The notes under the pieces were generated by a model that saw only the letters and a program-made list of their open reading frames with translations, was not told where the DNA came from and did not search any database. Of a stretch of DNA of 64,000 nt, positions 2,132 through 55,335 are shown piece by piece (position 1 is the stretch's first letter; every line of letters begins with the position of its first letter). A program made the position numbers and the translations under genes. The DNA is from Mycolicibacterium bacteremicum (lineage in GTDB: Bacteria; Actinomycetota; Actinomycetes; Mycobacteriales; Mycobacteriaceae), in NCBI RefSeq assembly GCF_943913955.1, contig NZ_CALUAE010000021.1, positions 8,787-72,786 on the forward strand, in the 5' to 3' direction.

Positions 2132-2138
2132 GGTTTCC

Positions 2139-4223
2139 TCACTCCCTACGCAACAGGTTGAGTCGGGCGTCCTGCGGTATCAGCGGCATGTTCAGCACGT
2201 GCGCGACCGCTCGGCTGGGTTCCAACCGGACGTAGTTGCTCTGGCCCCAGTGATACTCCTCGCCGGTGATCTCGTCACGGACCCAGAACTGGTCGTAGGG
2301 CTCCATACCCAGTGCGCCCATGTCTAACCACACGGTGCCGTCCTCCGGGCCGAACGGGTTCAGCGTCACCACCACGAGCACGCAGTCACCGGTGAGCGGA
2401 TCGAACTTGCTGTAGGCCAGTAGCGCGTCGTTGTCCACGTGATGGAAATGAATGGTGCGCAGCTGCTCCAGCGCGGGGTGCAGGCGACGGATCTCGTTGA
2501 GCCGGCTCAGGAATGGCTCCAACGAATTGCCCGCGGCGAGGGCGGCCTCGAAGTCGCGGGGGCGCAGCTCGTATTTCTCCGAGTCCAGATACTCCTCGCT
2601 GCCCTCGCGGACCGCCTGATGTTCGTAGAGTTCATAACCCGAATACACGCCCCACACCGAGCTGAACGTCGAGGCCAGCACGGCGCGGATGGCGAACATG
2701 CCCGGTCCGCCATGCTGCAGACTCTCGTGCAGGATGTCCGGGGTGTTGACGAAGAGATTCGGGCGCGCCACATCGGCGTACTCGGCGATCTGCTGGCCGT
2801 ACTCGGTCAGCTCCCACTTGGCGGTCCGCCAGGTGAAGTACGAATAGGACTGGGTGAAGCCCAGTTTGGCCAGGCCGAACAGTCGCGCCGGACGGGTGAA
2901 GGCCTCGGCCAGGAACAGGACGTCGGGGTCGTCGTTCTTGACCTTGCCGATCAGCCAGGCCCAGAAGTTCGGCGGCTTGGTGTGCGGATTGTCGACCCGG
3001 AAGATCTTGACCCCGTGCGACACCCAGTAGCGGACCACCCGCAGGACCTCGGCGTACAGACCGGCGGGGTCGTTGTCGAAGTTGAGCGGATAGATGTCCT
3101 GGTACTTCTTCGGCGGGTTTTCGGCGTAGGCGATGGTCCCGTCGGGCAACACGGTGAACCATTCCGGATGGGACTGGGCCCAGGGGTGGTCGGGTGCGCA
3201 CTGCAGCGCGAGGTCCAGCGCCACCTCCAGGCCCTGATCCCTTGCGGCGCCGACGAAGTCGTCGAAGTCGGCGATGGTACCCAGGTCCGGGTGGACGGCG
3301 TCGTGACCGCCCTCGCTGCTGCCGATCGCCCACGGCGATCCGACATCGCCGTCCAGCGCGGTGACGGTGTTGTTACGACCCTTGCGGTGCACCGTGCCGA
3401 TCGGGTGGATCGGCGGCAGATAGACGACGTCGAAACCCATCCGCGCGACCCGGGGCAGCTCCTTGGCCGCGGTGGCGAAGGTGCCGTGTACCGGCCTGCC
3501 CTCATTGTCCCAGCCGCCGGTGGACCGCGGGAACAGCTCGTACCAGGAGCCGAACCGGGCCAGCGGACGGTCGACCCAGATGCCGTACTGCTGGCCGCGG
3601 GTGAGCAGCTCGCGCAGCGGGAAGCGGTGCAGCAGGTCGGCGATGCCGGGGGACAGGGCCGCACCGGCGCGGACGAACGGGTCACCGGGCTGACGCAGCG
3701 CGCCGGCGGCATCGAGCAGCGGTTGGCGGTGCTCGCGCGGCATCCCGGCGGCGGCACGTTCGAGCAGCTGGGCCCCGACGATCAGGTCGTTGGACAGTTC
3801 CGACTCGCCCTGACCGGCGTCGAGCTTGGCGATGACACCCTTGCGCCAGGTCGCGATCGGGTCACCCCAGCCGTCCACCCGGTAGGTCCACATACCGACC
3901 TGATCGGGGGTGAACTGACCGTGCAGGACATCGGGGGTGCGCCCCGGTGTCATCGGCAGCAGCAGTGGCTTGATCCGCGGCGGCGTCACCGGCGCGGGTG
4001 CTTCGGGCGGGATGCCGGGCGGGTCGTCGACCAGTCGTGGATAGGCCGTCCCGTGATAGCGGACCACCAGGGTGGCGGCCACCGCGTCGTGGCCCTCCCG
4101 CCACACCGCGGCCTTGATCGGCACCACCTCGCCGACCACCGCTTTGGCCGGGAACCGGCCATTGGACAACACGGGCGCGACGTCGTCGATCTCGATTCGA
4201 CCGGCCACCCACCAACTCCTCAC
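2139..4223 (-). CDS. glgE: alpha-1,4-glucan:maltose-1-phosphate maltosyltransferase GlgE
   Basis: 694-aa ORF. Contains [54 protein letters not shown] and [18 protein letters not shown], which are GH13_3 GlgE hallmarks. Conserved position upstream of glgB. Confidence 0.9.
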
Positions 4224-4426
4224 TGGTGCGGCCGCCCATTTCGGTGACCGCGATCCGTCTTGTTCCGCTTCATGACTCGACGCGCTCGATACCGACTCTG
4301 AGTACCCAACCTAGTGTGGAGAACACATCGCCGTGCGCGATGGAGTCACTCCGGGTGATCGGTGCAACATCTCATTGACCACAACCTGCCCCGCCACCCG
4401 CTCGGTTGTCGGTAGGGTGAACTGGC

Positions 4427-7021
4427 GTGAAAGCCCTGAGACGATTCACCGTCCGAGCCCACCTTCCGGAACGGCTTTCAGCACTGGAGCGGCTGTCGGT
4501 CAACCTGAGATGGTCGTGGCACACGCCGACCCAGAAGCTGTTCGCCGAGATCGACCCGCGGCTGTGGCAGCAGGTCCGCGCCGACCCGGTGGCCCTGCTG
4601 GGCGCGGTGAACCCGCAGCGCCTCGACGAGCTCGCCGCCGACGACGAGTTCACCCGGCAGGTCGACGCGTGTGCCGATGATCTGGACAACTACCTGAGCC
4701 GGCCGATGTGGTACCAGCAGCAGCTCGACGCCGGCCGGCAGTTCCCCAACGGCATCGCCTACTTCTCCATGGAGTTCGGCGTGGCCGAGGTGCTGCCCAA
4801 CTATTCCGGCGGTCTGGGCATCCTGGCCGGTGACCACCTGAAGTCCGCGTCGGATCTGGGCCTGCCGTTGATCGCGGTCGGTCTGTACTACCGGTCCGGG
4901 TACTTCCGGCAGTCGCTGACCGCCGACGGCTGGCAGCACGAGAACTACCCGTCGCTGGACCCGCAGGGCCTGCCGCTGCGGCTGCTCACCGACCACAGCG
5001 GGCAGCCGGTGCTGATCGATCTGGCGATGCCCGACGGGGCCCGGTTGTACGCCCAGGTGCTCGTCGCCCAGGTCGGCCGGGTTCCGCTACTGCTGCTCGA
5101 CTCCGATATCGGGGAGAACGAGCATGATCTGCGCGGGGTCACCGACCGGCTCTACGGTGGTGACCAGGAACACCGGATCAAGCAGGAGCTGCTGGCCGGT
5201 ATCGGCGGGGTCCGGGCCATCCGGGCCTTCACCGAGGTCGAGGGCCTGCCCGCACCCGAGGTGTTCCACATGAACGAGGGGCACGCCGGATTCCTGGGTG
5301 TGGAGCGCATCCGCGAGCTCATCGAGGCCGGGCTGGATTTCGACACCGCGCTGACCGTGGTCCGCTCGTCGACGGTGTTCACCACCCACACCCCGGTCCC
5401 GGCCGGGATCGACCGGTTCCCGGTGGAGATGGTGCGGCGCTACTTCGGCGGCACCGATCTGGCCTCCCGGCTGCTGCCCGGGGTTCCGCTGGAACGGGTG
5501 ATCGCCTTCGGGGCCGAAGAGGACGCGTCGAAGTTCAACATGGCGCACATGGGGTTGCGGCTCGCCCAGCGCGCCAACGGTGTCTCGCTGCTGCACGGTG
5601 AGGTCAGCCGGGAAATGTTCAACGGACTGTGGCAGGGCTTCGATCCGGCCGAGGTCCCGATCGGGTCGATCACCAACGGTGTGCATGCGCCCACTTGGGC
5701 GGCGCCGCAGTGGGTCGACCTGGCCCACGAGCTGATCGGGGACGACCTCGGTTCGCTCAGCGAGGCCGAGACGTGGCAGCGCCTGCAGCAGGTCGACCCG
5801 GGCCATCTGTGGTGGATCCGCTCCCAGCTGCGCTCGCTGCTGGTCGAGGATGTGCGCGCCCGGCTGCGTCGGTCATGGCTGGAACGCGGTGCGTCCGAGG
5901 CCGAACTCGGTTGGATTGCAACGGCGTTCGACCCCGAGGTGCTGACGGTGGGGTTCGCCCGGCGGGTGCCGACATACAAGCGGCTGACCCTCATGCTGCG
6001 TGACCCGCAGCGCCTGGAGCGGTTGCTCCTGGATCCCGACCGCCCGGTCCAGCTGATCGTCGCGGGTAAGTCGCATCCGGCCGATGACGGCGGCAAATCG
6101 CTGATCCAGCAGATCGTGCGGTTCGCCGACCGGCACGAGGTACGGCACCGGATCGCCTTCCTCCCCGACTACGACATGTCGATGGCCCGGTTGCTGTACT
6201 GGGGTTGCGATGTGTGGCTGAACAACCCGTTGCGCCCGCTGGAGGCCTGCGGTACGTCGGGTATGAAGAGCGCGCTCAACGGCGGGCTCAACCTGTCCAT
6301 CCGGGACGGATGGTGGGACGAGTGGTACGACGGCGAGAACGGGTGGGAGATCCCGACCGCCGACGGGCTGGCCGATGAGACCCGCCGCGATGACATCGAG
6401 GCCGGTGCCCTCTACGACCTGCTGGAGACCTCGGTGACGCCGCGGTTCTACGACCGCGACGAGCGCGGGGTGCCGGTGCGGTGGGTGGAGATGGTGCGCC
6501 ACACCCTGCAGGCGCTCGGCCCGAAGGTGCTGGCCTCCCGGATGGTGCGCGACTACACCGAGAAGTACTACGCGCCGGCGGCCATCTCGCTGCGCGCCAC
6601 GCTCGAACCCGACAACGACGATGTCCCGTTCGGGGCGGCGCGGCAACTGGCCGCCTACCGCAGGCGCGTCGAGCAGCAGTGGCCGCTGATCGAGATCACC
6701 GATGTCGACAGCTACGGGTTGCCGGACACCCCGCTGCTGGGCAGCGAACTCACCCTGACCGCCACCGTGGATCTGGCCGGACTGGCACCCGAAGAGGTTG
6801 TGGTGCAAGCGGTTCTGGGCCGTGTCGATGGTGGCGACAATCTGCGCGACCCGGTGACGGTGCCGATGGACCATACCGGTGGCGCCGACGGTGGGCGGCA
6901 GGTGTTCTCCACCACCACACCGCTGCCGGTGGCCGGCCCGGTCGGCTACACGGTGCGGGTGCTGCCGCACCATCGGTTGCTGGCCGGGGCGAACGAACTC
7001 GGGCTCGTCACGCTGGCATGA
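4427..7021 (+). CDS. glgP: alpha-glucan (glycogen) phosphorylase GlgP
   Basis: 864-aa ORF with the N-terminal RLSVNLRWSWH..LF motif of Rv1328-type GT35 glucan phosphorylases. Divergent from glgE, as in M. tuberculosis. Confidence 0.88.
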   Translation: MKALRRFTVRAHLPERLSALERLSVNLRWSWHTPTQKLFAEIDPRLWQQVRADPVALLGAVNPQRLDELAADDEFTRQVDACADDLDNYLSRPMWYQQQLDAGRQFPNGIAYFSMEFGVAEVLPNYSGGLGILAGDHLKSASDLGLPLIAVGLYYRSGYFRQSLTADGWQHENYPSLDPQGLPLRLLTDHSGQPVLIDLAMPDGARLYAQVLVAQVGRVPLLLLDSDIGENEHDLRGVTDRLYGGDQEHRIKQELLAGIGGVRAIRAFTEVEGLPAPEVFHMNEGHAGFLGVERIRELIEAGLDFDTALTVVRSSTVFTTHTPVPAGIDRFPVEMVRRYFGGTDLASRLLPGVPLERVIAFGAEEDASKFNMAHMGLRLAQRANGVSLLHGEVSREMFNGLWQGFDPAEVPIGSITNGVHAPTWAAPQWVDLAHELIGDDLGSLSEAETWQRLQQVDPGHLWWIRSQLRSLLVEDVRARLRRSWLERGASEAELGWIATAFDPEVLTVGFARRVPTYKRLTLMLRDPQRLERLLLDPDRPVQLIVAGKSHPADDGGKSLIQQIVRFADRHEVRHRIAFLPDYDMSMARLLYWGCDVWLNNPLRPLEACGTSGMKSALNGGLNLSIRDGWWDEWYDGENGWEIPTADGLADETRRDDIEAGALYDLLETSVTPRFYDRDERGVPVRWVEMVRHTLQALGPKVLASRMVRDYTEKYYAPAAISLRATLEPDNDDVPFGAARQLAAYRRRVEQQWPLIEITDVDSYGLPDTPLLGSELTLTATVDLAGLAPEEVVVQAVLGRVDGGDNLRDPVTVPMDHTGGADGGRQVFSTTTPLPVAGPVGYTVRVLPHHRLLAGANELGLVTLA

Positions 7022-36326: not shown

Positions 36327-37094
36327 ATGCGAATCCCGCAGCAGCGCATTGCCGAGACGGTGGCCGGCGAGCTGCGCGACCGCATCCTGGCCGGGGCGGA
36401 CCGGCTCCCCACGCAAGATCAGCTGGTCGCCGAGTTCGGCGTCAGCTACCCCTCGGTGCGGGAAGCCCTGCGCATCCTGGAGACCGAGGGGCTGGTGACC
36501 GTGCGCCGCGGCAGCGTGGGCGGCGCCGAGGTACATCGCCCCGACGAATCGGCGGCGGCCTATCACCTCGGACTGGCGCTGCAGGGTGCCGCGGTGTCGT
36601 TGGGCGATCTGGCCGCGGGTCTGCAGCTGCTGGAGCCGATGTGTGCCGCGGAGGTGGCGCGCCGCCCCGATCGGCTGCGCACCGCGGTCCCGGCGCTGAG
36701 CCGCAATGTCGACGCGTGTGCCGAGGTGGTCGCCGACGGCGCGGCGTTCACCCGCATCGCCCGCGAATTCCACGACCTGATGGTCGAATTCACGCCGAAC
36801 GCCACCGTGCGCCATGTGGTCGGCAGCCTGGTGGCGCTGTGGTCGGCGCAGGAGCAGATGTGGGCCGATGCGGTCGTCAAACGCGGGGAGTACCCGTCAC
36901 CGGCGCGGGCCCGGGGTGCGGTGCGCACCCATCGCCGGATGGTCGAGGTGATCGCGGCGGGTGACGCCGCGGCGGCCGAACGCTTCGCGCGCACACACCT
37001 GGCCGCCACCCAGGCGGTGCTGCTGGACCGCTTCACCGATGACGTGGTCCGGGCCGCGCGGCACGCCAAGCCACACCTGAGGCGCAGCTGCTGA
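36327..37094 (+). CDS. GntR-family (FadR/FCD subfamily) transcriptional regulator
   Basis: N-terminal wHTH LPTQDQLVAEFGVSYPSVREALRILETEGLV, with a C-terminal all-helical FCD-like domain. Confidence 0.8.
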   Translation: MRIPQQRIAETVAGELRDRILAGADRLPTQDQLVAEFGVSYPSVREALRILETEGLVTVRRGSVGGAEVHRPDESAAAYHLGLALQGAAVSLGDLAAGLQLLEPMCAAEVARRPDRLRTAVPALSRNVDACAEVVADGAAFTRIAREFHDLMVEFTPNATVRHVVGSLVALWSAQEQMWADAVVKRGEYPSPARARGAVRTHRRMVEVIAAGDAAAAERFARTHLAATQAVLLDRFTDDVVRAARHAKPHLRRSC

Positions 37095-37101
37095 CCGGCC
37101 G

Positions 37102-37680
37102 TCAGCCCTGAGGCAGGTCCAGGATGCGCCGGGTCACCTTCAGGATCTGGGTGCGCAACGTGTCATCGTCGACATCGGTGACCAGTGGGTGCATCACCGC
37201 CGCGCTCAGCGCCCCGGACATGACCGCCGCATTGACCCGGGCCTCGACGCCGGCCCCCTCACCGAGCAGCACCTGGTAGAGCCGTTCGATGAAGGCGGCG
37301 AAGGGTCTGTGCTCGGCGAGCAGTCGCACCACCACCGGGTCGAACTGCAGCACGCCGGTCAACTGGCGGCGGGTGACGGCCATGTCGACAACCCGGGTGA
37401 GCAGGACGTCACGGGCGCTGACCTGATCGGGTTCGGACTGCGCGGCGTCGACGGCGTCCTGCAGCGCCGCCAGTTCGGTCTCCGCGACCGCGATGACGAC
37501 ATCGTCCTTGCTCTTGAACTGGTGGTACACGGCGGCTTTGGTGACCCCGATGGCGTCGGCGATCATCTGCAACGAGGTTCCGCTGACCCCGTGGGTGCCG
37601 AACAGATCCAGCGATGCGGCGATGACGCGCTTCTGTGCCGCGCTGTAGGTCGTCGGTGCCAGTCTGCCGGTGGTGCTCAC
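37102..37680 (-). CDS. TetR-family transcriptional regulator
   Basis: N-terminal HTH SLQMIADAIGVTKAAVYHQFKSKDDV. Confidence 0.8.
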   Translation of the reverse strand: MSTTGRLAPTTYSAAQKRVIAASLDLFGTHGVSGTSLQMIADAIGVTKAAVYHQFKSKDDVVIAVAETELAALQDAVDAAQSEPDQVSARDVLLTRVVDMAVTRRQLTGVLQFDPVVVRLLAEHRPFAAFIERLYQVLLGEGAGVEARVNAAVMSGALSAAVMHPLVTDVDDDTLRTQILKVTRRILDLPQG

Positions 37681-37910: not shown

Positions 37911-38174
37911 ATGAATGTGAAGAAGCTGATCGCAGGTGCAGCCGTCGCCGGTGGCCTCATCGCCGGACCTCTCGCCGCGGCCGGTATGGCAACCGCCGAG
38001 CCCGCTCCGATGCCGCCCGCTCCGCCGGCCGGCCCGTCCGTCGGCACCGCGCCGGCCTGGGCCCCGCCCAAGCCCGTCGACCCGGCCTGGGCTCAGGGCA
38101 ACCAGCAGGTGTGGGACAGCGGCTGGAACCACTGGGGCGTCTGGATCAACGGCGTCTTCGTGCCGACCTACTGA
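37911..38174 (+). CDS. small secreted Pro/Trp-rich protein of unknown function
   Basis: 87 aa from ATG 37911 with a signal peptide (KKLIAGAAVAGGLIAGPLAAAGMATA|EP) and a mature Trp-rich C-terminus (WDSGWNHWGVWINGVFVPTY). Confidence 0.5.
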   Translation: MNVKKLIAGAAVAGGLIAGPLAAAGMATAEPAPMPPAPPAGPSVGTAPAWAPPKPVDPAWAQGNQQVWDSGWNHWGVWINGVFVPTY

Positions 38175-39149: not shown

Positions 39150-39452
39150 TCAGTCGCTGGCAGGCAGCGGTTTGGCCTCCTTGATGGCCAGCGGGGTGTC
39201 GCCGATGCTGAGCGTGCCCGCGCCGGCCTTCGTCACCAGGATCTCGGCGCCGCTGTCATCGACATAACGCTTACCCATCAAGTTGCCGTCGGCCAGGCCG
39301 GGATCCAGCGAAAGACCGGCGGTCGCCTCGCCACCGACCGGGATCAGCGGTGCGCCGCCGGCCCGCAGATCATCGAGGGCGTCCGAGCTGCGCACCACGA
39401 TGACCTGGGTGTCGCAGACCTGGCTCTGCAGGCGGGTGCCGTTCTTGATCAT
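39150..39452 (-). CDS. hypothetical 100-aa protein, translationally coupled to upstream acyl-CoA synthetase
   Basis: Its start overlaps the FadD stop by 4 nt. No recognisable motif. Confidence 0.4.
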   Translation of the reverse strand: MIKNGTRLQSQVCDTQVIVVRSSDALDDLRAGGAPLIPVGGEATAGLSLDPGLADGNLMGKRYVDDSGAEILVTKAGAGTLSIGDTPLAIKEAKPLPASD

Positions 39453-40942
39453 GCGGGCTCCTTATCGTTGAGTTCGCTGACGAGTTCCCGGCGCAGCACT
39501 TTGCCGGTGGCGTTGGTGGGCAGTTCGGCGCGGAACACCACCCGGTCGGGGGTGCGCGAGCCGCGCAACTGGGCGCGGACGAACTCGCGCAGGTCCTCGG
39601 GTTCGGGGTCACTGCCGGGTGCGGGCACGACGACCGCCACGATGATCTGACCCCACTGCGGGTCCTCGGCGCCGACCACCGCGCAGTCGCGCACCGCTGG
39701 ATGTTCGACCAGCACATCCTCGATTTCGGCCGGGGCGATGTTCTCCCCGCCGCGGATGATGGTGTCGTCGGAACGGCCGCCGATGAACAGGTAGCCGTCC
39801 TCGTCGAGGGTGGCGACATCCTTGGTGGGGAACCAGCCGTGCTCGTCGAGCACCGAACCGATCCCGGTGTAGCGGCCCGAGACCTGCTCACCGCGGACGA
39901 ACAGTTCACCGGTTTCGCCTGCGCCGAGGACGGTTCCGTCCTCGGCCCGGATCTGCACCTCGATGCTGGGCACCGGCTGGCCGACCGAGGCCAGCCGGCG
40001 GGCCACCGCCGGGTCGTCGGAGGCCAGCGCCACCCGATGATCGTCGGGGGTCAGCACCGCGATCGTCGAACTGGTCTCGGTCAGACCGTAGGCGTTGACG
40101 AAGCCGACCGCGGGTAGCAGCTCAAGGGCCTTGCGCACCAAGGGAAGTGCCACCTTCGACCCGCCGTAGGCCAGCGTCCGCAGGGTCGGCAGCGCGGTGC
40201 GCTGCTCCTGCAGCACGGTGACGATCCGGTCCAGCATGGTCGGCACGACGGTGGCCGAGGTGACGCCCTCGGTCTCCACCAGTCGGACCCATTCGCGGGC
40301 GTCGAACTGGGTGAGGTACACCATCTTGCGGCCCGCGTACAGGTTCGACAGCGCCGCCGACACGCCGGCGATGTGGTACGGCGGTACACAGATCAGCGCG
40401 GCGTCACCCTCGGCGGCCGCACCGAACTCGACCGTCCCGGTGATATAGCTGGTGAGGTTGTTGTGGGTCAGCTCAACGGCTTTGGGCGCCGAGGTGGTGC
40501 CCGAGGTGAACAGCACCACGCCGACGGAATCGGGGTCGGGGAACTCGGCCGCTGGTTCGGCCGTGCGTGCCTGGGCCAGGAACTCCCGGGAGCCGATCAC
40601 CCGGTAGCCGTCACCGACCGCGGCGCGATACTCGTCGTCGACCACGACGAGCGGGTCGGGCAGCCGGTCGATCAACGCCCGGAGCCCGTCGGCGGACAGC
40701 CGATAGTTCAACGGTGTCACGGCCACTCCGGCGCGGGCGGCCGAGAACAGCAGCAGCGGCAGCAGGGCGCCGCCGGTCCCGACATAGGCGACGTGGCCGG
40801 CGCCGGTGGCTGCCACCACGCCGGCGCCGCCATCGGCGAGCGTGCTCAGTTCCTCGACGGTCAGCCGCAGGTCGCCGGACACGATCGCGGTGGCGTCCGG
40901 GTTGGCCGACGACGCCATCTCCAGCAGCAGCGAGATACTCAT
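39449..40942 (-). CDS. acyl-CoA synthetase / AMP-dependent ligase (FadD-like)
   Basis: 497 aa with the AMP-binding motif FTSGTTSAPKAV, plus YGLTETS and a C-terminal GKVLRREL lysine. Confidence 0.8.
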   Translation of the reverse strand: MSISLLLEMASSANPDATAIVSGDLRLTVEELSTLADGGAGVVAATGAGHVAYVGTGGALLPLLLFSAARAGVAVTPLNYRLSADGLRALIDRLPDPLVVVDDEYRAAVGDGYRVIGSREFLAQARTAEPAAEFPDPDSVGVVLFTSGTTSAPKAVELTHNNLTSYITGTVEFGAAAEGDAALICVPPYHIAGVSAALSNLYAGRKMVYLTQFDAREWVRLVETEGVTSATVVPTMLDRIVTVLQEQRTALPTLRTLAYGGSKVALPLVRKALELLPAVGFVNAYGLTETSSTIAVLTPDDHRVALASDDPAVARRLASVGQPVPSIEVQIRAEDGTVLGAGETGELFVRGEQVSGRYTGIGSVLDEHGWFPTKDVATLDEDGYLFIGGRSDDTIIRGGENIAPAEIEDVLVEHPAVRDCAVVGAEDPQWGQIIVAVVVPAPGSDPEPEDLREFVRAQLRGSRTPDRVVFRAELPTNATGKVLRRELVSELNDKEPA

Positions 40943-41775
40943 GACTTGTCCACGAAGATATCCCAGATGGGGTCATCCCCACCGCCGTAACGGGACAGGT
41001 CGGTGATTCCCGCCTCGGCCAGGACGTCGGCGTCGATGTAGGTCTGGCCGTTGGACTGCTCGGGCGGACCGGTCAGGATCTGCACCGCGGCGTCGGCCAT
41101 GATCTCCGGACTGCGCGAGGCCGATGCCAGGTTGTCGCCGTCGGCCAGATTGGTCACCGCGGAGGTGGCGATGTAGGTCTGCGGCCACAGGCAGCTGAAG
41201 CCGATGCCCGCGTCGCGGTACTCCTGCGCCCAGCCCAGCGACAGCAGCGTCATCCCGTACTTGGACACGGTGTAGGTCGGGTGCGCACCGAGCCAGTACG
41301 GGTTGAGGTTCAGCGGCGGCGCCAGGGTGATGACGTGCGCGGCCGACGACGCGCGCAGGTGCGGCAGCGCGGCCTTGGTGAGCAGGAACGTGCCCCGCAC
41401 GTTGATGTCCATCATCAGGTCGTACTTCTTGACGGAAAGCGATTCGGTGGCTTCTGTCGCGATGGCGCTGGCGTTGTTGACCACGATGTCGATACCGCCG
41501 AAGGCCTGCACCGCGGTGTCCACGGCGCGGGCGACGTCCTCCTCCTTGCGGACGTCGCCGACGACGGCCACGGCCTTGGCGCCGACGGCCTCCACATCGG
41601 CGACCGCGGTGTGCACGGTGCCGGGCAGCTTCGGATGTGGTTCGGCGGTCTTGGCCAACAGCACCACATTGGCGCCCTGGCGGGCGGCGCCGAGGGCGAT
41701 GGCCAGCCCGATGCCGCGGCTGCCGCCGGAAACCAGCAGTGTGCGGTCGGCAAGCGGGCGTTGCTCGCTGGACAT
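40939..41775 (-). CDS. SDR-family oxidoreductase
   Basis: Start at MSSEQRPL (ATG 41775, AAGGAG Shine-Dalgarno). Contains VSGGSRGIGLAIA and YTVSKYG. Confidence 0.75.
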   Translation of the reverse strand: MSSEQRPLADRTLLVSGGSRGIGLAIALGAARQGANVVLLAKTAEPHPKLPGTVHTAVADVEAVGAKAVAVVGDVRKEEDVARAVDTAVQAFGGIDIVVNNASAIATEATESLSVKKYDLMMDINVRGTFLLTKAALPHLRASSAAHVITLAPPLNLNPYWLGAHPTYTVSKYGMTLLSLGWAQEYRDAGIGFSCLWPQTYIATSAVTNLADGDNLASASRSPEIMADAAVQILTGPPEQSNGQTYIDADVLAEAGITDLSRYGGGDDPIWDIFVDKS

Positions 41776-41812
41776 AGGGACTCCTTGGACGACGGTCGTA
41801 CCTGACCTAGAT

Positions 41813-41832
41813 GGTATTGGCATTCTCATTTT
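41813..41832. repeat. 20-nt direct repeat GGTATTGGCATTCTCATTTT, copy 1 (divergent SDR/mutase promoter region)
   Basis: Identical 20-mer at 41953-41972. Both are followed after 4 nt by AAGT. Confidence 0.7.
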
Positions 41833-41952
41833 CAGCAAGTGTCATAATCGCGCATGGCCTGCGAAGACGGCGCGGCGGGGGTCGGTCGGACTGCCTCGCG
41901 TCGGGGCCGGGCGAGCGGTTCCACGCTCTCAGGGTGCATGTTTTCCGTCTGC

Positions 41953-41972
41953 GGTATTGGCATTCTCATTTT
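41953..41972. repeat. 20-nt direct repeat GGTATTGGCATTCTCATTTT, copy 2 (21 nt upstream of mutase ATG)
   Basis: Perfect copy of 41813-41832. Contains the CATTCTC half-site shared with the palindromes at 46282 and 49212. Confidence 0.7.
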
Positions 41973-41992
41973 TTGGAAGTACGTTATCCAAC

Positions 41993-43570
<1,578 letters not shown>

Positions 43571-43571
<1 letters not shown>

Positions 43572-43978
43572 TGGCGACCCGAGTGCTGGTCGCCAAGCCC
43601 GGTCTGGACGGACACGACCGCGGCGCCAAGATCGTCGCCCGCACGTTGCGCGATGCCGGTTTCGAGGTCATCTACACCGGTATCCGGCAGCGCATCGAGG
43701 ACATCGTGTCGATCGCCCTGCAGGAAGACGTTGCCCTGGTGGGCCTTTCGATCCTGTCCGGGGCGCACGTGGCGATGACCAAGCGCACCGTCGATGCGTT
43801 GAATGCTGCCGATGCCGGTGACATCGCCGTCGTGGTGGGCGGCACCATCCCGGAATCCGACGTGCAGAAGCTGCTCGATGCCGGTGCGGCCGCGGTGTTC
43901 CCGACCGGTACCGCGCTGGACACCCTGGTGACCGAGGTGCGGGCGTTGACGGAGAAGGCAGGGGAACACGCATCATGA
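43571..43978 (+). CDS. acyl-CoA mutase small subunit, cobalamin-binding domain
   Basis: 135 aa with the DxHxxG motif (LDGHDRGAK). Its ATG overlaps the large-subunit stop (TGATG). Confidence 0.8.
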
Positions 43979-44931: not shown

Positions 44932-45968
44932 CCTCGGGTCCGCTGGCCGGCATCCGGATCATCGAGGTCGGTGTCATGCTGGCCGGTCCGTACGCCACCA
45001 TGTTGCTGGCCGATCTGGGTGCCGAGGTCATCAAGGTCGAGCCGCCCGGTGGGGAGATCTCCCGGCAGGTCAGCGACAGCTATTTCGCCAGCCTCAACCG
45101 CAACAAGCGCAGCGTGTGTCTGGATCTGCGCTCGGCCGATGGACAGGCCAGACTGGCCGAGCTGGTCGCGGATTCGCATGCGCTGCTGGTCAACATGAAA
45201 CCCTCGGCCATCAAGAAGCTGGGCCTCACCTACGAGGAGCTACGCGCACACAACCCGAAGATCGTCTGCGTCGCGCTGACCGGGTACGGGCTCGACGGCG
45301 GGGACGACCCGGCCTTCGACTATGTCATCCAGGCCGCGACGGGGGTGGCCGCGATGACCGGCGACCCGGATGCCCCGCCCACCCTGCCCGGCTACTCGGC
45401 CGCCGACAATTCCACCGGGCTGACCGCGGCACTGGGGTTGCTGGCCAAGATCGTCTCTGGCCAGGGTGGTCAGGTCGAGGTGTGCTTGCGCGATGTCATG
45501 CTCTCCCAGCTGAACTACCGGGCGGCGGCGTATCTCAACGACGGTGTGGCGCCCAAGCGTCACCCGTTCGGTGCGCACTCGTATTACGTTCCGGCGCAGC
45601 TTTTCCCGACCGCGGACGGGCACCTGGCGCTGTTCATCACCCATGACGGGTTCTGGCGGTCGTTCGCCGCCGAGGCCGGGGTGACCGGGTTCGCCACCAT
45701 GGCCGAGCGGGCGGCCGCCCGCGACGATGTGCTGGCCGTGGTGACGGCCGCGCTGGCCGGTGACACCGCGGTCAACTGGGAGCGCCGGCTCAAGCCGCTG
45801 GGCATCCCGGCCGCGGCGGTCCGCTCGTTGCCGGAGGCGTTGGAGGACACCCCGGAGGTGGTGGTGGACGCCGGCGATTTCCGGCTGGTGGCCAGCCCGA
45901 TCCGAATCGCCGGGTTCGATCCCGAGTACCGGCCCGCGCCGGTCTTCGAGGCGGTTCAGTCGTCGTAG
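44928..45968 (+). CDS. CoA-transferase family III (CaiB/BaiF-like)
   Basis: GIRIIEVGVMLAGPYATMLLADLGAEVIKVE is the canonical family III N-terminus. Confidence 0.8.
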   Translation: MTSGPLAGIRIIEVGVMLAGPYATMLLADLGAEVIKVEPPGGEISRQVSDSYFASLNRNKRSVCLDLRSADGQARLAELVADSHALLVNMKPSAIKKLGLTYEELRAHNPKIVCVALTGYGLDGGDDPAFDYVIQAATGVAAMTGDPDAPPTLPGYSAADNSTGLTAALGLLAKIVSGQGGQVEVCLRDVMLSQLNYRAAAYLNDGVAPKRHPFGAHSYYVPAQLFPTADGHLALFITHDGFWRSFAAEAGVTGFATMAERAAARDDVLAVVTAALAGDTAVNWERRLKPLGIPAAAVRSLPEALEDTPEVVVDAGDFRLVASPIRIAGFDPEYRPAPVFEAVQSS

Positions 45969-46252
45969 TTCACCGTCAGCGGGCCCGGATCGGGAATCGC
46001 CTGGCAGGTCAGCACGTAACCCTCGTCGACCTCGTCCTCGTCGAGCGCGTCGTTGACGCGCATGGTCGCCGAACCCTCGGTCAACTTGGCGATGCAGGTG
46101 CCGCAGTTGCCGGCCTCGCAGGCGAACGGGGGCGTCAACCCCGCACGGCGCGCGGTCTCCAGCAGAGTGTCGCCCGCCGCCGGCACTATCGTGGTGGCGG
46201 CGCCGTCGAGCACGATCGTCACTTCGTCGGCAGGCACGGGTTCAGCCGTCAT
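45956..46252 (-). CDS. [2Fe-2S] ferredoxin
   Basis: 98 aa with the CEAGNCGTC ... LTC cysteine pattern of plant/adrenodoxin-type 2Fe-2S ferredoxins, preceded by an AGGAGA Shine-Dalgarno. The track ORF 45956..47011 is a spurious extension. Confidence 0.75.
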   Translation of the reverse strand: MTAEPVPADEVTIVLDGAATTIVPAAGDTLLETARRAGLTPPFACEAGNCGTCIAKLTEGSATMRVNDALDEDEVDEGYVLTCQAIPDPGPLTVNYDD

Positions 46253-46281: not shown

Positions 46282-46304
46282 AACGGAGAATATCATTCTC
46301 CGTT
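46282..46304. promoter_or_regulatory. perfect 10-3-10 palindrome AACGGAGAAT-ATC-ATTCTCCGTT in the ferredoxin/acyl-CoA ligase divergent promoter
   Basis: The inverted repeat lies in a locally AT-rich 70-bp gap between divergent starts 46252 and 46322. Its core GAGAAT-N3-ATTCTC recurs at 49212-49228. Confidence 0.65.
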
Positions 46305-49211: not shown

Positions 49212-49228
49212 GGAGAATAGCATTCTCA
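49212..49228. promoter_or_regulatory. palindrome GGAGAAT-AGC-ATTCTCA in the SDR/MeaB divergent promoter
   Basis: Same GAGAAT-N3-ATTCTC core as 46282-46304. Confidence 0.6.
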
Positions 49229-54499: not shown

Positions 54500-55222
54500 T
54501 CAGCCGAGAATCTCGGACAGTTGCTTGGCCGCGCGGATGACGGCATCGCGACCGGTGAGGACGACATCCTCACGGTGGGAGATCAGGTTGATGCAGGTCG
54601 GTGGGGAGGGCGGTCGGCGCCGCACCGGGACGGCCAGGCCGTAGGTGTCGGGCTCGATCTCGCCGTGGGTGATCACCCACCCCTGATCGCGAGCCCGGCG
54701 GACCAGTTCGCGCTCGCCAGGCCGCGGCGGCATGCTCGACAACAGGGCGATGCCGGCGGCGCCGCGCTCCAGCGGGTGGCGGCTGCCCTCGTGGAAGGAC
54801 AGTTGGTAGAACACCAGCGTCGGCACGATCACCGCGATCGCCACCTGTTGATCACCCTCGGCGACCAGCAGTGAGACGGTGGTGCCCAGATCGTCGGCGA
54901 GTAGCCGCAGTGTCGGCAGCGCGAGTTGGCGGACATTGTTGTCGAAGGACGCGCCCAGTACCGCCAGTGCGGCGGCGGGCCGGTAGCGGCCATCCTCGCC
55001 CTTGGTGATGAACCGGGCCTGCGCCAGAGTGCTGAGCAATCGGTAGGCGATGGTCCGGTGCACCCCGACGTAATCGGCGACCTCCGCCGCGGTGATCCCC
55101 GCGGGTGCGCTCGAGACCGCCTGGAGAGCGGAAAGTCCGCGGGCCAGCGTCTGGGAGCCGGCCGCCGGCCGGTCGGTCAATTCGCGTCCCGGGCTTGTCA
55201 CGGGTCCCTTGACAGACGTCAT
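54500..55222 (-). CDS. IclR-family transcriptional regulator (MhpR-like position)
   Basis: N-terminal wHTH (ITAAEVADYVGVHRTIAYRLLSTL) plus an IclR effector domain. Divergent from the mhpC/A/B genes, as mhpR is in E. coli. Confidence 0.75.
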   Translation of the reverse strand: MTSVKGPVTSPGRELTDRPAAGSQTLARGLSALQAVSSAPAGITAAEVADYVGVHRTIAYRLLSTLAQARFITKGEDGRYRPAAALAVLGASFDNNVRQLALPTLRLLADDLGTTVSLLVAEGDQQVAIAVIVPTLVFYQLSFHEGSRHPLERGAAGIALLSSMPPRPGERELVRRARDQGWVITHGEIEPDTYGLAVPVRRRPPSPPTCINLISHREDVVLTGRDAVIRAAKQLSEILG

Positions 55223-55247
55223 CGCGAGAGTGATGCTCTATAGATAG

Positions 55248-55263
55248 TGCACATAGATGTGCG
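55248..55263. promoter_or_regulatory. palindrome TGCACAT-AG-ATGTGCG in the AT-rich IclR/mhp divergent promoter
   Basis: A 7-bp inverted repeat with one mismatch. Further TGCACA/TGCGCG-like hexamers follow (tagCACAgatgatTGCGCG). Confidence 0.45.
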
Positions 55264-55335
55264 ATTTTAGCACAGATGATTGCGCGAAAGCGAGAATGGG
55301 ATTTCCGCAGGGAACCCACGACGACGGGGAGAGGC

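What the first reader, a model, noticed from the sequence alone, without database searches (positions are those of the whole stretch)
41776..41992. Perfect 20-nt direct repeat GGTATTGGCATTCTCATTTT placed just upstream of each of two divergent genes (SDR and acyl-CoA mutase)
The copies lie at 41813-41832 and 41953-41972, 140 bp apart, and are identical over 20 nt, with ..AAGT. following both. Copy 1 is ~38 nt from the SDR start (minus strand), and copy 2 is 21 nt from the mutase ATG. In a genome with little exact repetition, an exact 20-mer duplication in a promoter region suggests either two binding sites for one regulator or duplicated promoter elements. Both copies contain the CATTCTC half-site of the GAGAAT-N3-ATTCTC palindromes found downstream. 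A 47-codon uORF (41854-41997) that begins 22 nt after copy 1 and ends overlapping the mutase ATG was noticed but cannot be supported.
Basis: seen in the sequence. Interest (0 to 1): 0.55.

Follow-up and report, generated by a model that had tools for sequence, protein, structure and literature searches.

The report
Conserved operator-promoter of mutase operon
The repeated 20-mer is two copies of a combined promoter and repressor-binding element that is kept almost letter for letter in front of the same B12-dependent acyl-CoA mutase operon in over a hundred actinobacterial species, so it is a real but conventional gene switch whose regulator has not been studied.

Summary
In detail: GGTATTGGCATTCTCATTTT occurs exactly twice in the window (41813-41832, 41953-41972). 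No other match exists even at 3 mismatches.

It is not a dispersed repeat. A scan of species-representative genomes found the exact 20-mer in at least 116 Actinomycetota. In nearly every case it lies 21 nt before the ATG of the orthologous mutase. In an unbiased protein-anchored set, a 37-nt element is 92% identical, while the 40 nt upstream are 36% identical.

The element contains a -35-like TTGGCA, a 17-nt spacer and TAnnnT. This fits a leaderless mutase promoter. It also contains one perfect ATTCTC half-site of the GAGAAT-N3-ATTCTC palindromes that sit in the cluster's other divergent promoters.

Those palindromes also lie upstream of a highly conserved, uncharacterised TetR-family gene in five genomes. 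That gene is absent from this window. It is the likely repressor.

The upstream copy exists only in some mycobacteria. It abuts the divergent SDR gene and carries a bottom-strand TACCAT -10.

The 47-codon uORF shows no coding-type conservation.

Verdict: a genuine duplicated operator/promoter, a new member of a known kind. All binding and transcription starts are inferred.

The parts
41813..41832 (+). Copy 1 (distal) of the 20-mer GGTATTGGCATTCTCATTTT. Its reverse complement begins GAGAATGCCAATACC, an asymmetric operator-type site.
   Evidence: Exact match. Distal copies are present only in some mycobacterial loci, at 109-158 bp from the proximal copy.
41953..41972 (+). Copy 2 (proximal) of the 20-mer, 21 nt upstream of the mutase ATG.
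   Evidence: Exact match. The same position is found in at least 116 genomes and in about 70 of 78 protein-anchored metagenome loci.
41953..41989 (+). Full conserved proximal element: the 20-mer, then ttGGAAGTACGTTATCC. The family consensus is GGTATTGGCATTCTC-nTTTTyt-GCAAGTAnnGTATyC.
   Evidence: Mean pairwise identity is 92% over 37 nt, against 36% for the 40 nt upstream and 49% for adjacent codon third positions.
41813..41849 (+). Full distal element: the 20-mer, then cagcAAGTGTCATAATC. The distal-type consensus is nnGCAAGTSyCrTAATC.
   Evidence: Alignment of distal copies.
41957..41962 (+). TTGGCA, a -35-like hexamer of the inferred mutase promoter P2.
   Evidence: Read from the sequence. 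It is invariant in all orthologues. It lies 17 nt from TACGTT.
41980..41985 (+). TACGTT, the inferred -10 (TAnnnT) of P2. The predicted start is at G41993 or A41994, which would make the mutase mRNA leaderless.
   Evidence: T, A and the final T are kept while the inner bases vary across genera (TACGTT, TACCGT, TATCGT, TAACGT, TACGGT, TAGCAT). The spacing fits the ANNNT window of -13 to -6 reported for M. smegmatis (PMC6448022). No Shine-Dalgarno sequence precedes the ATG.
41811..41816 (-). TACCAT, the inferred -10 of the divergent SDR-operon promoter. It overlaps the first 4 nt of copy 1.
   Evidence: The bottom-strand hexamer is TAnnnT in 44 of 73 sites that abut a divergent SDR gene, against 27 of 135 sites that do not.
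41833..41838 (-). TTGCTG, the inferred -35 of the SDR-operon promoter, with a 16-nt spacer to TACCAT.
   Evidence: Read from the sequence. TTGC is conserved as the reverse complement of the GCAA that follows every copy.
41840..41848 (+). TGTCATAAT, an extended -10-like motif (TGn + CATAAT) after copy 1. It marks a possible second plus-strand promoter P1 starting near A41854.
   Evidence: CATAAT, CATATT or CATACT is conserved in the 109-bp and 140-bp spacing classes but is CGTAAT in the 157-bp class. Inference only.
41854..41997 (+). 47-codon uORF ending in the ATGA overlap with the mutase start.
   Evidence: ORF list. In about 5 of 9 spacing classes a start codon at positions 41-45 opens a frame that runs to the ATGA; this tally was read off the listing. 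There is no codon-position bias, 2 of 19 orthologues have in-frame stops and 2 lack a start codon.
41934..41946 (+). GTGCATGTTTTCC block 7-19 nt upstream of copy 2, conserved in mycobacterial loci (GTGCAYGTTTCC). Role unknown.
   Evidence: Alignments.
46282..46304 (.). 23-nt perfect palindrome AACGGAGAATATCATTCTCCGTT, a full operator between the Fer2 gene and the second acyl-CoA ligase gene.
   Evidence: Orthologous perfect palindromes occur in about 50 loci across Mycobacterium, Nocardia, Streptomyces and Gordonia.
49213..49227 (.). Perfect palindrome GAGAATAGCATTCTC between an SDR gene and the MeaB-like GTPase gene.
   Evidence: The same site occurs in L014.
40939..41775 (-). SDR-family oxidoreductase, first gene of the divergent operon (SDR, acyl-CoA ligase, and onward).
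   Evidence: Pfam and NCBIfam. Conserved next to the element.
41994..43978 (+). Acyl-CoA mutase large subunit (41994-43571) and B12-binding small subunit (43571-43978). They are followed by an F420-type LLM oxidoreductase gene and a family III CoA-transferase gene.
   Evidence: Pfam and NCBIfam. The gene order is conserved in more than 100 loci.

Best explanation
Each copy of the 20-mer is the upstream two-thirds of a roughly 37-nt promoter-plus-operator module. The module controls a conserved actinobacterial catabolic cluster: SDR and acyl-CoA ligase on one side; mutase AB, an F420-type LLM oxidoreductase and a CoA-transferase on the other.

What is shown:
- The module is fixed 21 nt before the mutase ATG in many genera.
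- It is far more conserved than its flanks or the adjacent codon third positions.
- It always co-occurs with perfect GAGAAT-N3-ATTCTC palindromes in the cluster's other divergent promoters.
- The same palindrome lies upstream of a highly conserved TetR-family gene in five genomes.

What is inferred:
1. On the plus strand, TTGGCA, a 17-nt spacer and TAnnnT form a SigA-type promoter. It starts at or 1 nt before the mutase ATG, giving a leaderless mRNA.
2. On the minus strand, TTGC.., a 16-nt spacer and TACCAT form the promoter of the divergent SDR operon.
3. A dimer of that TetR-family repressor binds GGTATTGGC-ATTCTC. This site has one perfect half-site and one conserved non-consensus half-site. 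A second dimer may bind 7 nt further on. Binding would cover the -35 of one promoter and the -10 of the other. It would be released by a pathway metabolite, probably an acyl-CoA.
4. In most genera one module serves both directions. In a subset of mycobacteria, including this one, the module was duplicated in tandem. Copy 1 kept the minus-strand -10 (TACCAT) next to the SDR gene. Copy 2 kept the plus-strand -10 next to the mutase.

The perfect 20/20 identity of the two copies reflects purifying selection on each copy, not a recent duplication. Both copies equal the pan-actinobacterial consensus.
For: 116 of these are Actinomycetota (Mycobacterium, Mycolicibacterium, Mycolicibacter, Nocardia, Gordonia, Streptomyces, Actinomadura), in nearly every case between the SDR and mutase genes.

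Unbiased set: in loci anchored on the mutase protein, 42 have an exact copy, 22 have 1 mismatch and about 6 have 2-5 mismatches, at 20-21 nt (to the annotated ATG in most) before the start. The core ATTGGCATTCTC is invariant.

Conservation: 92% over the element, 36% over the upstream flank, 49% at codon third positions.

Promoter reading: TAnnnT is kept while its inner bases vary. It fits the mycobacterial -10 window and the leaderless definition of PMC6448022. Where mutAB is deleted (L089, L043) the element stays in front of the next gene.

Minus-strand -10: TAnnnT in 44 of 73 sites abutting the SDR gene, against 27 of 135 other sites.

Operator link:
- Palindromes are conserved in the Fer2/ACS2 intergenic region of about 50 loci.
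- Co-occurrence with the element is 35 of 35, against 0 of 8 where the element is missing.
- 25 of 87 palindrome regions carry a 15-mer within 4 mismatches of GAGAATGCCAATACC, the reverse complement of 20-mer positions 1-15. It lies exactly 7 nt downstream and at no other offset from 0 to 30.

Regulator:
- A perfect palindrome plus a second site 7 nt later lies upstream of the TetR gene in Parafrankia, Streptomyces, Actinomadura and two mycobacterial-type contigs.
- The gene sits next to the cluster in L126, L049 and L176.
- In Actinomadura it is embedded among five operators beside MeaB, thiolase, SDR, Fer2-reductase and LLM genes.
- Its HTH region is nearly invariant.
Against: - No binding or transcription-start data exist for any of these loci.
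- The generic sigma-70 scan called no promoter in 41700-42100, because TACGTT matches only 3 of 6 positions of TATAAT.
- The candidate TetR is not encoded in the 64-kb window. Its presence in the source genome is unverified.
- No transcription-factor gene lies within 10 kb of the cluster in Streptomyces L124.
- The left half-site GGTATT matches GAGAAT at only 3 of 6 positions.
- The putative second site GCAAGTACGTTATCC matches the palindrome consensus poorly. Its conservation may come only from promoter elements.
- The counts come from related genomes and are not independent events.
Confidence: 0.72

Rival explanations
1. The element is an operator/promoter, but it is bound by a different regulator from the TetR family proposed. 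Candidates are the cluster-adjacent TetR (37102-37680) or the GntR/FCD regulator (36327-37094) of this window, or a factor not yet seen.
For: Both genes lie 4-5 kb from the element. They are conserved beside the cluster in the closest mycobacterial relatives: TetR in L036, L037 and L039; GntR in L015, L019, L036, L106 and L116. The proposed TetR is absent from the window.
Against: Neither gene is seen near the element in Nocardia, Streptomyces, Gordonia or Actinomadura loci, where the element is unchanged. The window TetR is not related to the palindrome-associated TetR beyond family level. No palindrome or 20-mer-like site lies upstream of either gene.
Confidence: 0.12
2. The element is a pure promoter with no repressor. 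Its conservation reflects only RNA polymerase or sigma-factor contacts of two overlapping divergent promoters.
For: Nearly every conserved block can be assigned to a -35 or -10 of one strand: TTGGCA and TAnnnT on the plus strand, TTGCAA and TACCAT on the minus strand.
Against: Mycobacterial SigA promoters show no -35 consensus and tolerate any inner -10 bases (PMC6448022). Promoter function alone therefore does not explain an invariant ATTCTC and T-tract in the spacer. ATTCTC is the half-site of palindromes that co-occur with the element in 35 of 35 loci. The asymmetric 15-mer recurs beside those palindromes at a fixed 7-nt spacing.
Confidence: 0.08
3. Copy 1 drives a leaderless transcript whose first ORF is the 47-codon uORF. 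That uORF acts as a regulatory leader peptide or couples translation into the mutase ATG through the ATGA overlap.
For: TGnCATAAT lies 6 nt before ATG 41854. In five spacing classes (109, 137, 140, 147, 158 bp) a start codon at positions 41-45 is in frame with the ATGA stop. The inter-copy length is fixed at 109 bp in 19 divergent sequences. Leaderless short ORFs are known regulators in mycobacteria (bioRxiv 10.1101/834739, listed).
Against: Substitution entropy is equal at the three codon positions: 16.8, 18.2 and 19.2 for the 109-bp class, and 24.4, 21.7 and 21.5 for the 140-bp class. 2 of 19 orthologues have in-frame stops and 2 have GTT instead of GTG. The 157-bp class has no consistent start and a poor -10, CGTAAT. 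About 40% of 40-codon frames would be stop-free by chance at this GC content; this figure is my own estimate.
Confidence: 0.05
4. The conserved sequence acts as RNA: a riboswitch-like or protein-binding 5' leader of the mutase mRNA, or a small RNA.
For: Very high sequence conservation lies immediately upstream of a start codon that has no Shine-Dalgarno sequence.
Against: Rfam gave no hit even at E up to 10. The fold of 41813-41996 is no more stable than shuffles, z = -0.40. There is no variation from which to score covariation. The shared motif occurs as DNA palindromes in either orientation in divergent intergenic regions. Only 21 nt separate it from the ATG.
Confidence: 0.02
5. The 20-mer is a dispersed or mobile repeat (REP- or MITE-like), or a recent local duplication with no function.
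For: Exact 20-nt identity of two nearby copies.
Against: There are only two copies in 64 kb. Across at least 116 genomes it is always found in the same promoter position. Both copies equal the cross-genus consensus while the sequence between them has diverged freely. No terminal inverted repeats or target-site duplications are present.
Confidence: 0.01

Closest known systems
KstR and KstR2 operators of actinobacterial steroid catabolism (TetR-family repressors; motifs TnnAACnnGTTnnA and AnCAAGnnCTTGnT, recalled from memory)
   Same: A TetR-family repressor with a short palindromic operator. The operator is repeated in the divergent promoters of a lipid and acyl-CoA catabolic gene cluster and upstream of its own gene, and is conserved across Actinobacteria. 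The ligand is expected to be a CoA thioester.
   Different: The motif differs: GAGAAT-N3-ATTCTC, a 6-3-6 arrangement. The protein is not an orthologue; KstR and KstR2 match at E of about 1e-4 only, which is family-level similarity. The regulated core is a B12-dependent mutase operon. At the mutase promoter the site is asymmetric and fused to promoter elements.
QacR/IR1 and other TetR-family repressors that bind as two dimers on adjacent or extended operators (as summarised in PMC4482099)
   Same: Two 15-bp sites separated by exactly 7 bp, 22 bp centre to centre, occur at the TetR gene's own promoter, at the Fer2/ACS2 promoter and possibly at the mutase promoter.
   Different: The stoichiometry is not tested. 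The second site at the mutase promoter is a weak match.
HpoR (Rv0767c / MSMEG_5860), a TetR-family regulator proposed to bind 'motif X' of sterol-induced genes
   Same: A conserved mycobacterial TetR with an autoregulatory palindrome, next to P450, SDR and aldehyde dehydrogenase genes. I followed it as a lead from memory of the gene context.
   Different: Its footprinted motif is (G/A)GACANNTGTCC (PMC5909442), which is unrelated to GAGAAT-N3-ATTCTC. The lead is rejected.
Leaderless SigA promoters of mycobacteria (PMC6448022)
   Same: (T)ANNNT lies within -13 to -6 of a start codon that has no Shine-Dalgarno sequence. The distance to the ATG is fixed.
   Different: Typical mycobacterial promoters show no conserved -35 or spacer. 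Here the whole region of about 40 nt is invariant. The start site is not mapped for this gene.
Leaderless short-ORF attenuators in mycobacteria (bioRxiv 10.1101/834739)
   Same: A short ORF could begin at the 5' end of a transcript upstream of an operon, and it overlaps the next start codon.
   Different: There is no conserved or amino-acid-biased peptide and no coding-type conservation. The uORF is not required in most genera, which have a single copy.

Membership tests
TetR-family operator | Short dyad-symmetric DNA site (about 15 bp) | tested here: inconclusive
   The cluster's other sites are perfect 6-3-6 palindromes. The 20-mer carries one perfect half-site (ATTCTC). Its other half, GGTATT, matches 3 of 6 positions. 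This asymmetric form does recur beside palindromes at a fixed spacing.
TetR-family operator | Site lies in or overlaps the promoter of the regulated genes, typically in divergent intergenic regions | tested here: met
   All four sites in the window lie in divergent intergenic regions. The position relative to the mutase ATG is fixed in more than 100 genomes.
TetR-family operator | A cognate TetR gene carries the same site upstream (autoregulation) and is linked to the regulon | tested here: met
   A perfect palindrome lies upstream of the TetR gene in 5 of 5 loci examined. The gene is adjacent to the cluster in L126, L049 and L176. It was not found in this window.
TetR-family operator | Direct, ligand-reversible binding of the protein to the site | not testable with these tools
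   Needs EMSA, footprinting or ChIP.
SigA-type (sigma-70) promoter, leaderless class | -10 (T)ANNNT within -13 to -6 of the start. The start coincides with the start codon or lies within 5 nt of it. | tested here: inconclusive
   TAnnnT at element positions 28-33 is conserved with variable inner bases, and ATG is at position 42. The criterion comes from PMC6448022. The generic consensus scan found no promoter. No TSS data were found.
Dispersed repeat (REP/MITE-like) | Many copies per genome in unrelated contexts | tested here: not met
   Two copies in the window. There are 1-2 copies per genome, always at the same locus, including complete chromosomes.
cis-regulatory RNA (riboswitch or leader) | Conserved secondary structure with covariation, or a match to a known family | tested here: not met
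   No Rfam match. Fold z = -0.40. The sequence is invariant, so there is no covariation to score.
Conserved small protein or leader peptide (uORF 41854-41997) | Substitutions biased to third codon positions; frame and start kept in orthologues | tested here: not met
   Entropy is equal at the three codon positions. Stops occur in 2 of 19 orthologues and the start is missing in 2.
Sigma-54 promoter (TGGCAC-N5-TTGCW) | GG and GC elements 12 nt apart | tested here: not met
   In TGGCA...TTGCA of the element, the two G positions are 16 nt apart (read). That Actinobacteria lack rpoN is from my own knowledge.

The most novel reading that the evidence does not exclude
The duplication split one compact bidirectional, repressor-controlled promoter into two specialised copies. 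The upstream copy also fires a leaderless transcript whose otherwise meaningless 36-51-codon ORF is kept open to the ATGA overlap. In this reading, ribosomes are delivered by termination-reinitiation to a mutase start codon that has no Shine-Dalgarno sequence. What is conserved is reading frame and length rather than peptide sequence.
Probability: 0.15. Interest if true: 0.55.

Novelty: new member of a known kind. Interest (0 to 1): 0.4.

Why it matters
The finding defines, from sequence alone, a testable regulon with four parts:
- an uncharacterised but very conserved TetR-family repressor;
- its operator, GAGAAT-N3-ATTCTC, plus an asymmetric variant;
- a roughly 37-nt promoter/operator module that is about 92% identical from Mycobacterium to Streptomyces;
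- a conserved B12-dependent acyl-CoA mutase pathway of unknown substrate.

The operator gives a handle for finding the pathway's inducer, and hence its substrate. The module itself could serve as a compact, tightly defined inducible leaderless promoter for actinobacterial genetics. It does not reveal a new kind of mechanism.

Tried and rejected
- **Known RNA family or structured leader.** Rfam found nothing and the fold is no better than shuffles.
- **Sigma-54 promoter.** The spacing is wrong by 4 nt.
- **MerR-type promoter with a 20-nt spacer.** There is no dyad in the spacer (read from the sequence).
- **SigF or ECF-type motifs.** Spacings do not fit (reading plus memory).
- **Regulators encoded in the window.** TetR 37102-37680 is not related to the palindrome-linked TetR. 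GntR/FCD 36327-37094 and IclR 54500-55222 are not conserved with the element, and none has a site upstream.
- **DtxR-like regulator next to a palindrome in Gordonia L081.** It is unique to that locus.
- **Rv0767c/HpoR.** I followed this from memory of the gene context and from the 'motif X' paper (PMC6593523). Its footprinted motif is GGACANNTGTCC (PMC5909442), so it is rejected. Supplements of PMC6593523 and PMC4482099 hold no matching sites.
- **Literature search for the motif strings.** It returned only unrelated primers.
- **M. smegmatis TSS tables, looking for MSMEG_4879-4882.** The held copy is truncated and has no entry, so this is uninformative.
- **A regulator gene in the Fer2-ACS2 'gap' of Nocardia and Streptomyces.** The gap is the FAD/NAD domain of a longer Fer2 reductase.
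- **Rhodococcus context.** The look-up failed because the protein is not on record.
- **Blastococcus.** The mutase sits inside a longer operon, with no element and no palindrome.
Full report
**1. The observation**

The 20-mer GGTATTGGCATTCTCATTTT is present exactly twice, at 41813-41832 and 41953-41972 on the + strand. No further match exists in the 64-kb window even at three mismatches, and shuffles gave none.

The repeat lies in the 218-nt intergenic region 41776-41993. On one side is an SDR gene (40939-41775, minus strand). On the other is the large subunit of an acyl-CoA mutase (ATG 41994, ending 43571), followed by the B12-binding small subunit (43571-43978).

Each copy is followed by exactly 21 nt and then an ATG: 41854 for the 47-codon uORF and 41994 for the mutase. 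AAGT follows both copies at +5 to +8.

Two perfect GAGAAT-N3-ATTCTC palindromes lie further on, at 46286 and 49213, each in a divergent intergenic region. The first is really a 23-nt palindrome, 46282-46304.

**2. Gene context**

Pfam and NCBIfam give this layout:
- GntR/FCD regulator, a TetR, a DUF1295 protein, an acyl-CoA ligase and the SDR, running leftwards from the element.
- Mutase A and B, a TIGR03564-type F420-dependent LLM oxidoreductase and a family III CoA-transferase, running rightwards.
- Then a 2Fe-2S ferredoxin, a second acyl-CoA ligase, two SDRs, a MeaB-like GTPase, a DUF35 protein, a thiolase, an enoyl-CoA hydratase and an FAD dehydrogenase.

GC content is about 68%. The identical mutase is on ENA metagenome contigs with the same gene order.

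**3. Not a dispersed repeat, but an extraordinarily conserved promoter-proximal element**

Of these, 116 are Actinomycetota: Mycobacterium, Mycolicibacterium, Mycolicibacter, Nocardia, Gordonia, Streptomyces, Actinomadura and MAGs.

In nearly every case the match lies just upstream of the orthologous mutase, usually with the SDR gene divergent on the other side. Three hits in an Anaerolineae, a cyanobacterial and an Oscillospiraceae genome have unrelated contexts and are at the level expected by chance for a 20-mer in this collection. In two Nocardia loci (L043, L089) the mutase genes are missing and the element sits in front of the next gene, the LLM gene. The complete chromosomes of M. aurum and Streptomyces sp. 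NBC_00631 each gave a single stretch.

That search could only find exact copies. I therefore also collected 80 metagenome loci through the mutase protein alone, at 87-96% identity. Of 78 with enough upstream sequence:
- 42 have the exact 20-mer, 22 have one mismatch (mostly A16 to T) and about 6 have 2-5 mismatches.
- All lie 20-21 nt before the start, which is the annotated ATG in most of these loci.
- The core ATTGGCATTCTC never varies.
- Conservation continues downstream, giving a 37-nt element GGTATTGGCATTCTC-nTTTTyt-GCAAGTAnnGTATyC.

Across 56 distinct sequences, mean pairwise identity is 92% for the element and 95% for the 20-mer. It is 36% for the 40 nt upstream and 49% for third codon positions of the first 20 codons. 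The identity is therefore due to selection on the DNA, not to recent transfer.

**4. Promoter reading (inferred)**

Within the proximal element, TTGGCA (41957-41962) is followed after 17 nt by TACGTT (41980-41985). Across genera this hexamer is TACGTT, TACCGT, TATCGT, TAACGT, TACGGT or TAGCAT. T, A and the last T are fixed while the inner bases drift, which is the signature of the mycobacterial -10 TANNNT.

The ATG begins 8 nt after the hexamer, and no Shine-Dalgarno sequence is present. In M. smegmatis, ANNNT lies between -13 and -6 of mapped starts, leaders of 5 nt or less count as leaderless, and about a quarter of transcripts are leaderless (PMC6448022). A start at G41993 or A41994 fits this and explains the rigid 21-nt spacing.

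The generic sigma-70 scan did not call a promoter here, because TACGTT matches only 3 of 6 positions of TATAAT. No TSS data for this gene could be retrieved. This step therefore remains an inference.

On the other strand, the reverse complement of positions 21-26 is TTGCAA (TTGCTG at copy 1). Sixteen nt further on, the reverse complement of positions 4 to -2 is TACCnn. This hexamer is TAnnnT, mostly TACCAT, in 44 of 73 distinct sites that abut a divergent SDR gene. It is TAnnnT in only 27 of 135 sites that do not; those are mostly TACCGC. These genomes are related, so the counts are not independent.

In the window, copy 1 has TACCAT (41816-41811) and copy 2 has TACCGC. The module therefore looks like two overlapping divergent promoters.

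**5. Operator reading**

The palindrome GAGAAT-N3-ATTCTC is a textbook operator. Its half-sites are fixed while the spacer and flanks vary. It is present in the ferredoxin/ligase intergenic region of about 50 loci from Mycobacterium to Streptomyces.

It co-occurs perfectly with the 20-mer element. All 35 of 35 protein-anchored loci that have the element and those genes have the palindrome. The eight loci without the element have a different gene order and no palindrome. A Blastococcus locus likewise has neither.

The first 15 nt of the 20-mer, read on the other strand, are GAGAATGCCAATACC: one perfect half-site and one non-consensus half. This asymmetric form is not peculiar to the mutase promoter. 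In 25 of 87 distinct palindrome regions, a 15-mer within four mismatches of it (typically CAGAATGACAATGCC) lies exactly 7 nt after the palindrome in the same orientation. No other offset from 0 to 30 gives this.

The 20-mer can also be read as three tandem ATTnnC hexamers: ATTGGC, ATTCTC, ATTTTY.

**6. The likely regulator**

None of the regulators in the window travels with the element.

In Parafrankia, a TetR-family gene at the end of the homologous cluster has a perfect palindrome 93 nt upstream. Partial orthologues sit beside the cluster in Mycolicibacter senuensis (L049) and in a metagenome contig (L176).

The family is unusually conserved: 68-75% identity among Frankia, Actinomadura, Actinocorallia, Streptomyces and Yinghuangia. 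Its helix-turn-helix region is nearly invariant. Fragments are named from Mycobacterium sp. and Mycolicibacterium elephantis.

All five loci examined have a perfect palindrome upstream of the gene: Parafrankia, Streptomyces himalayensis, Actinomadura sp. LD22 and two mycobacterial-type contigs. In each, a second site GAAAGT-N3-(A/G)(A/T)TCTC follows after exactly 7 nt. In Actinomadura the gene is surrounded by five operators next to MeaB, thiolase, SDR, Fer2-reductase and LLM genes.

The chance of a perfect 12-specified-base site within 300 nt is about 4e-5 per locus; this is my own arithmetic. No close solved structure exists; the best match is TtgR at E = 5e-6. No paper with this motif was found.

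I therefore assign this TetR as the probable repressor. Two caveats apply: it is not in this window, and binding is untested.

**7. Why there are two copies here**

The distal copy exists only in some mycobacterial lineages, at 109, 137, 140, 146-147 or 156-158 bp from the proximal copy. It has its own conserved tail, GCAAGTSyCrTAATC, which differs from the proximal GCAAGTACGTTATCC.

Where it has diverged, the core is still kept: GGAATTGGCATTCTCATTCT and GGTATTGGCATTCTCGGTTT are examples. In single-copy genera such as Nocardia, the SDR start lies about 30-55 nt from the only copy.

The simplest account is a tandem duplication of a bidirectional module followed by specialisation. Copy 1 keeps the minus-strand -10 for the SDR operon. 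Copy 2 keeps the plus-strand -10 for the mutase. Both keep the operator. The 20/20 identity in this window arises because both copies sit at the family consensus.

**8. The uORF**

After copy 1, TGTCATAAT (an extended -10 type) lies 5 nt before ATG 41854. In five spacing classes a start codon at element positions 41-45 is in frame with the ATGA stop.

However, substitution entropy is flat over the three codon positions. Two of 19 sequences in the 109-bp class carry in-frame stops, two have GTT instead of GTG, and the 157-bp class has no consistent start.

A conserved peptide is excluded. Passive translation of a leaderless ORF that hands ribosomes to the mutase ATG is not excluded. The exact length conservation (109 bp across very divergent sequences) remains only partly explained.

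**9. Verdict**

The repeat is a duplicated operator/promoter module of an uncharacterised but highly conserved TetR regulon that controls a B12-dependent acyl-CoA mutase cluster.

It works like the KstR and KstR2 systems but is not a member of them. It is unusual only in how completely the roughly 37-nt module is frozen across actinobacterial orders.

Confidence is about 0.85 that it is a promoter/operator, and about 0.6 in the identity of the repressor.

Noticed in passing
window 41994-43571 and loci L004-L206: The mutase large subunit is 86-97% identical from Mycobacterium to Streptomyces, Actinomadura and Parafrankia. Its neighbours (LLM, CoA-transferase, SDR, ligase) are 65-77% identical. 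By eye it keeps the Tyr (..ASGYRGK..) and Arg (..EYASRGTW..) that bind the substrate carboxylate in methylmalonyl-CoA mutase; that residue assignment is from memory. The substrate is probably a dicarboxylic acyl-CoA. The pathway is uncharacterised.
   Followed up: partly
window 45956-46252 (-): The ferredoxin gene here encodes only the 98-aa 2Fe-2S domain. In Nocardia, Streptomyces and Parafrankia the orthologue is a 330-360-aa FAD/NAD-binding reductase fused to the Fer2 domain. Mycobacterial loci appear to have lost the reductase part.
   Followed up: partly
window 41934-41946: A GTGCAYGTTTCC block lies 7-19 nt upstream of the proximal copy and is conserved in mycobacterial loci, single-copy ones included. 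The terminator-like scan hit here (41924-41936 plus a T-run). Its role is unknown: a second factor site, an UP-like element or a weak terminator for read-through from copy 1.
   Followed up: no
L043 and L089 (Nocardia): The mutase A and B genes are absent, yet the 20-mer element is retained directly upstream of the LLM gene. This looks like a natural deletion that keeps the promoter.
   Followed up: partly
window 54500-55335: An IclR-family regulator (54500-55222, minus strand) lies at the far end of the cluster. Its divergent intergenic region carries repeated GTGCAC/TAGATGTGC-type motifs, plus a 2-mismatch GAGAATGGGATTTCC at 55292. It probably has its own separate operator.
   Followed up: partly
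L124 (Streptomyces sp. NPDC002499) 78-6079: A complete mycofactocin gene set (mftA-F) lies about 4 kb upstream of the mutase cluster. The window's SDR also has weak similarity to mycofactocin-coupled SDR families. A cofactor link is possible.
   Followed up: no
L081 (Gordonia hankookensis), oriented coordinates 1360-2126: A DtxR/MntR-like regulator gene is divergent from the mutase, with a perfect GAGAATCTTATTCTC 33 nt upstream of its start. This was seen only in this genome.
   Followed up: partly
L153, L159, L166, L167, L169, L195, L199, L200: A sister form of the cluster (mutA-mutB-CoA-transferase-MeaB, without LLM, Fer2 or ligase) lacks both the 20-mer and the palindromes. In L195, L199 and L200 it keeps only the ATG-proximal part (GAAAGTGCGGTAATCGTCGATG) and has a GATATGATATC palindrome about 70 nt upstream. 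This suggests a different regulator.
   Followed up: no
window 39150-39452 (-) and 37912-38173 (+): Two small conserved ORFs have no Pfam family. One is a 100-aa ORF between the ligase and DUF1295 genes. The other is an 87-aa proline-rich ORF with a signal-peptide-like N-terminus, between DUF1295 and the TetR gene. Both are called as genes on the identical ENA contig.
   Followed up: no
window 41813-41832: The 20-mer is built of three tandem ATTnnC hexamers (ATTGGC, ATTCTC, ATTTTY) after GGT. On the other strand this gives overlapping 6-3-6 sites: GAAAAT-GAG-AATGCC and GAGAAT-GCC-AATACC.
   Followed up: no
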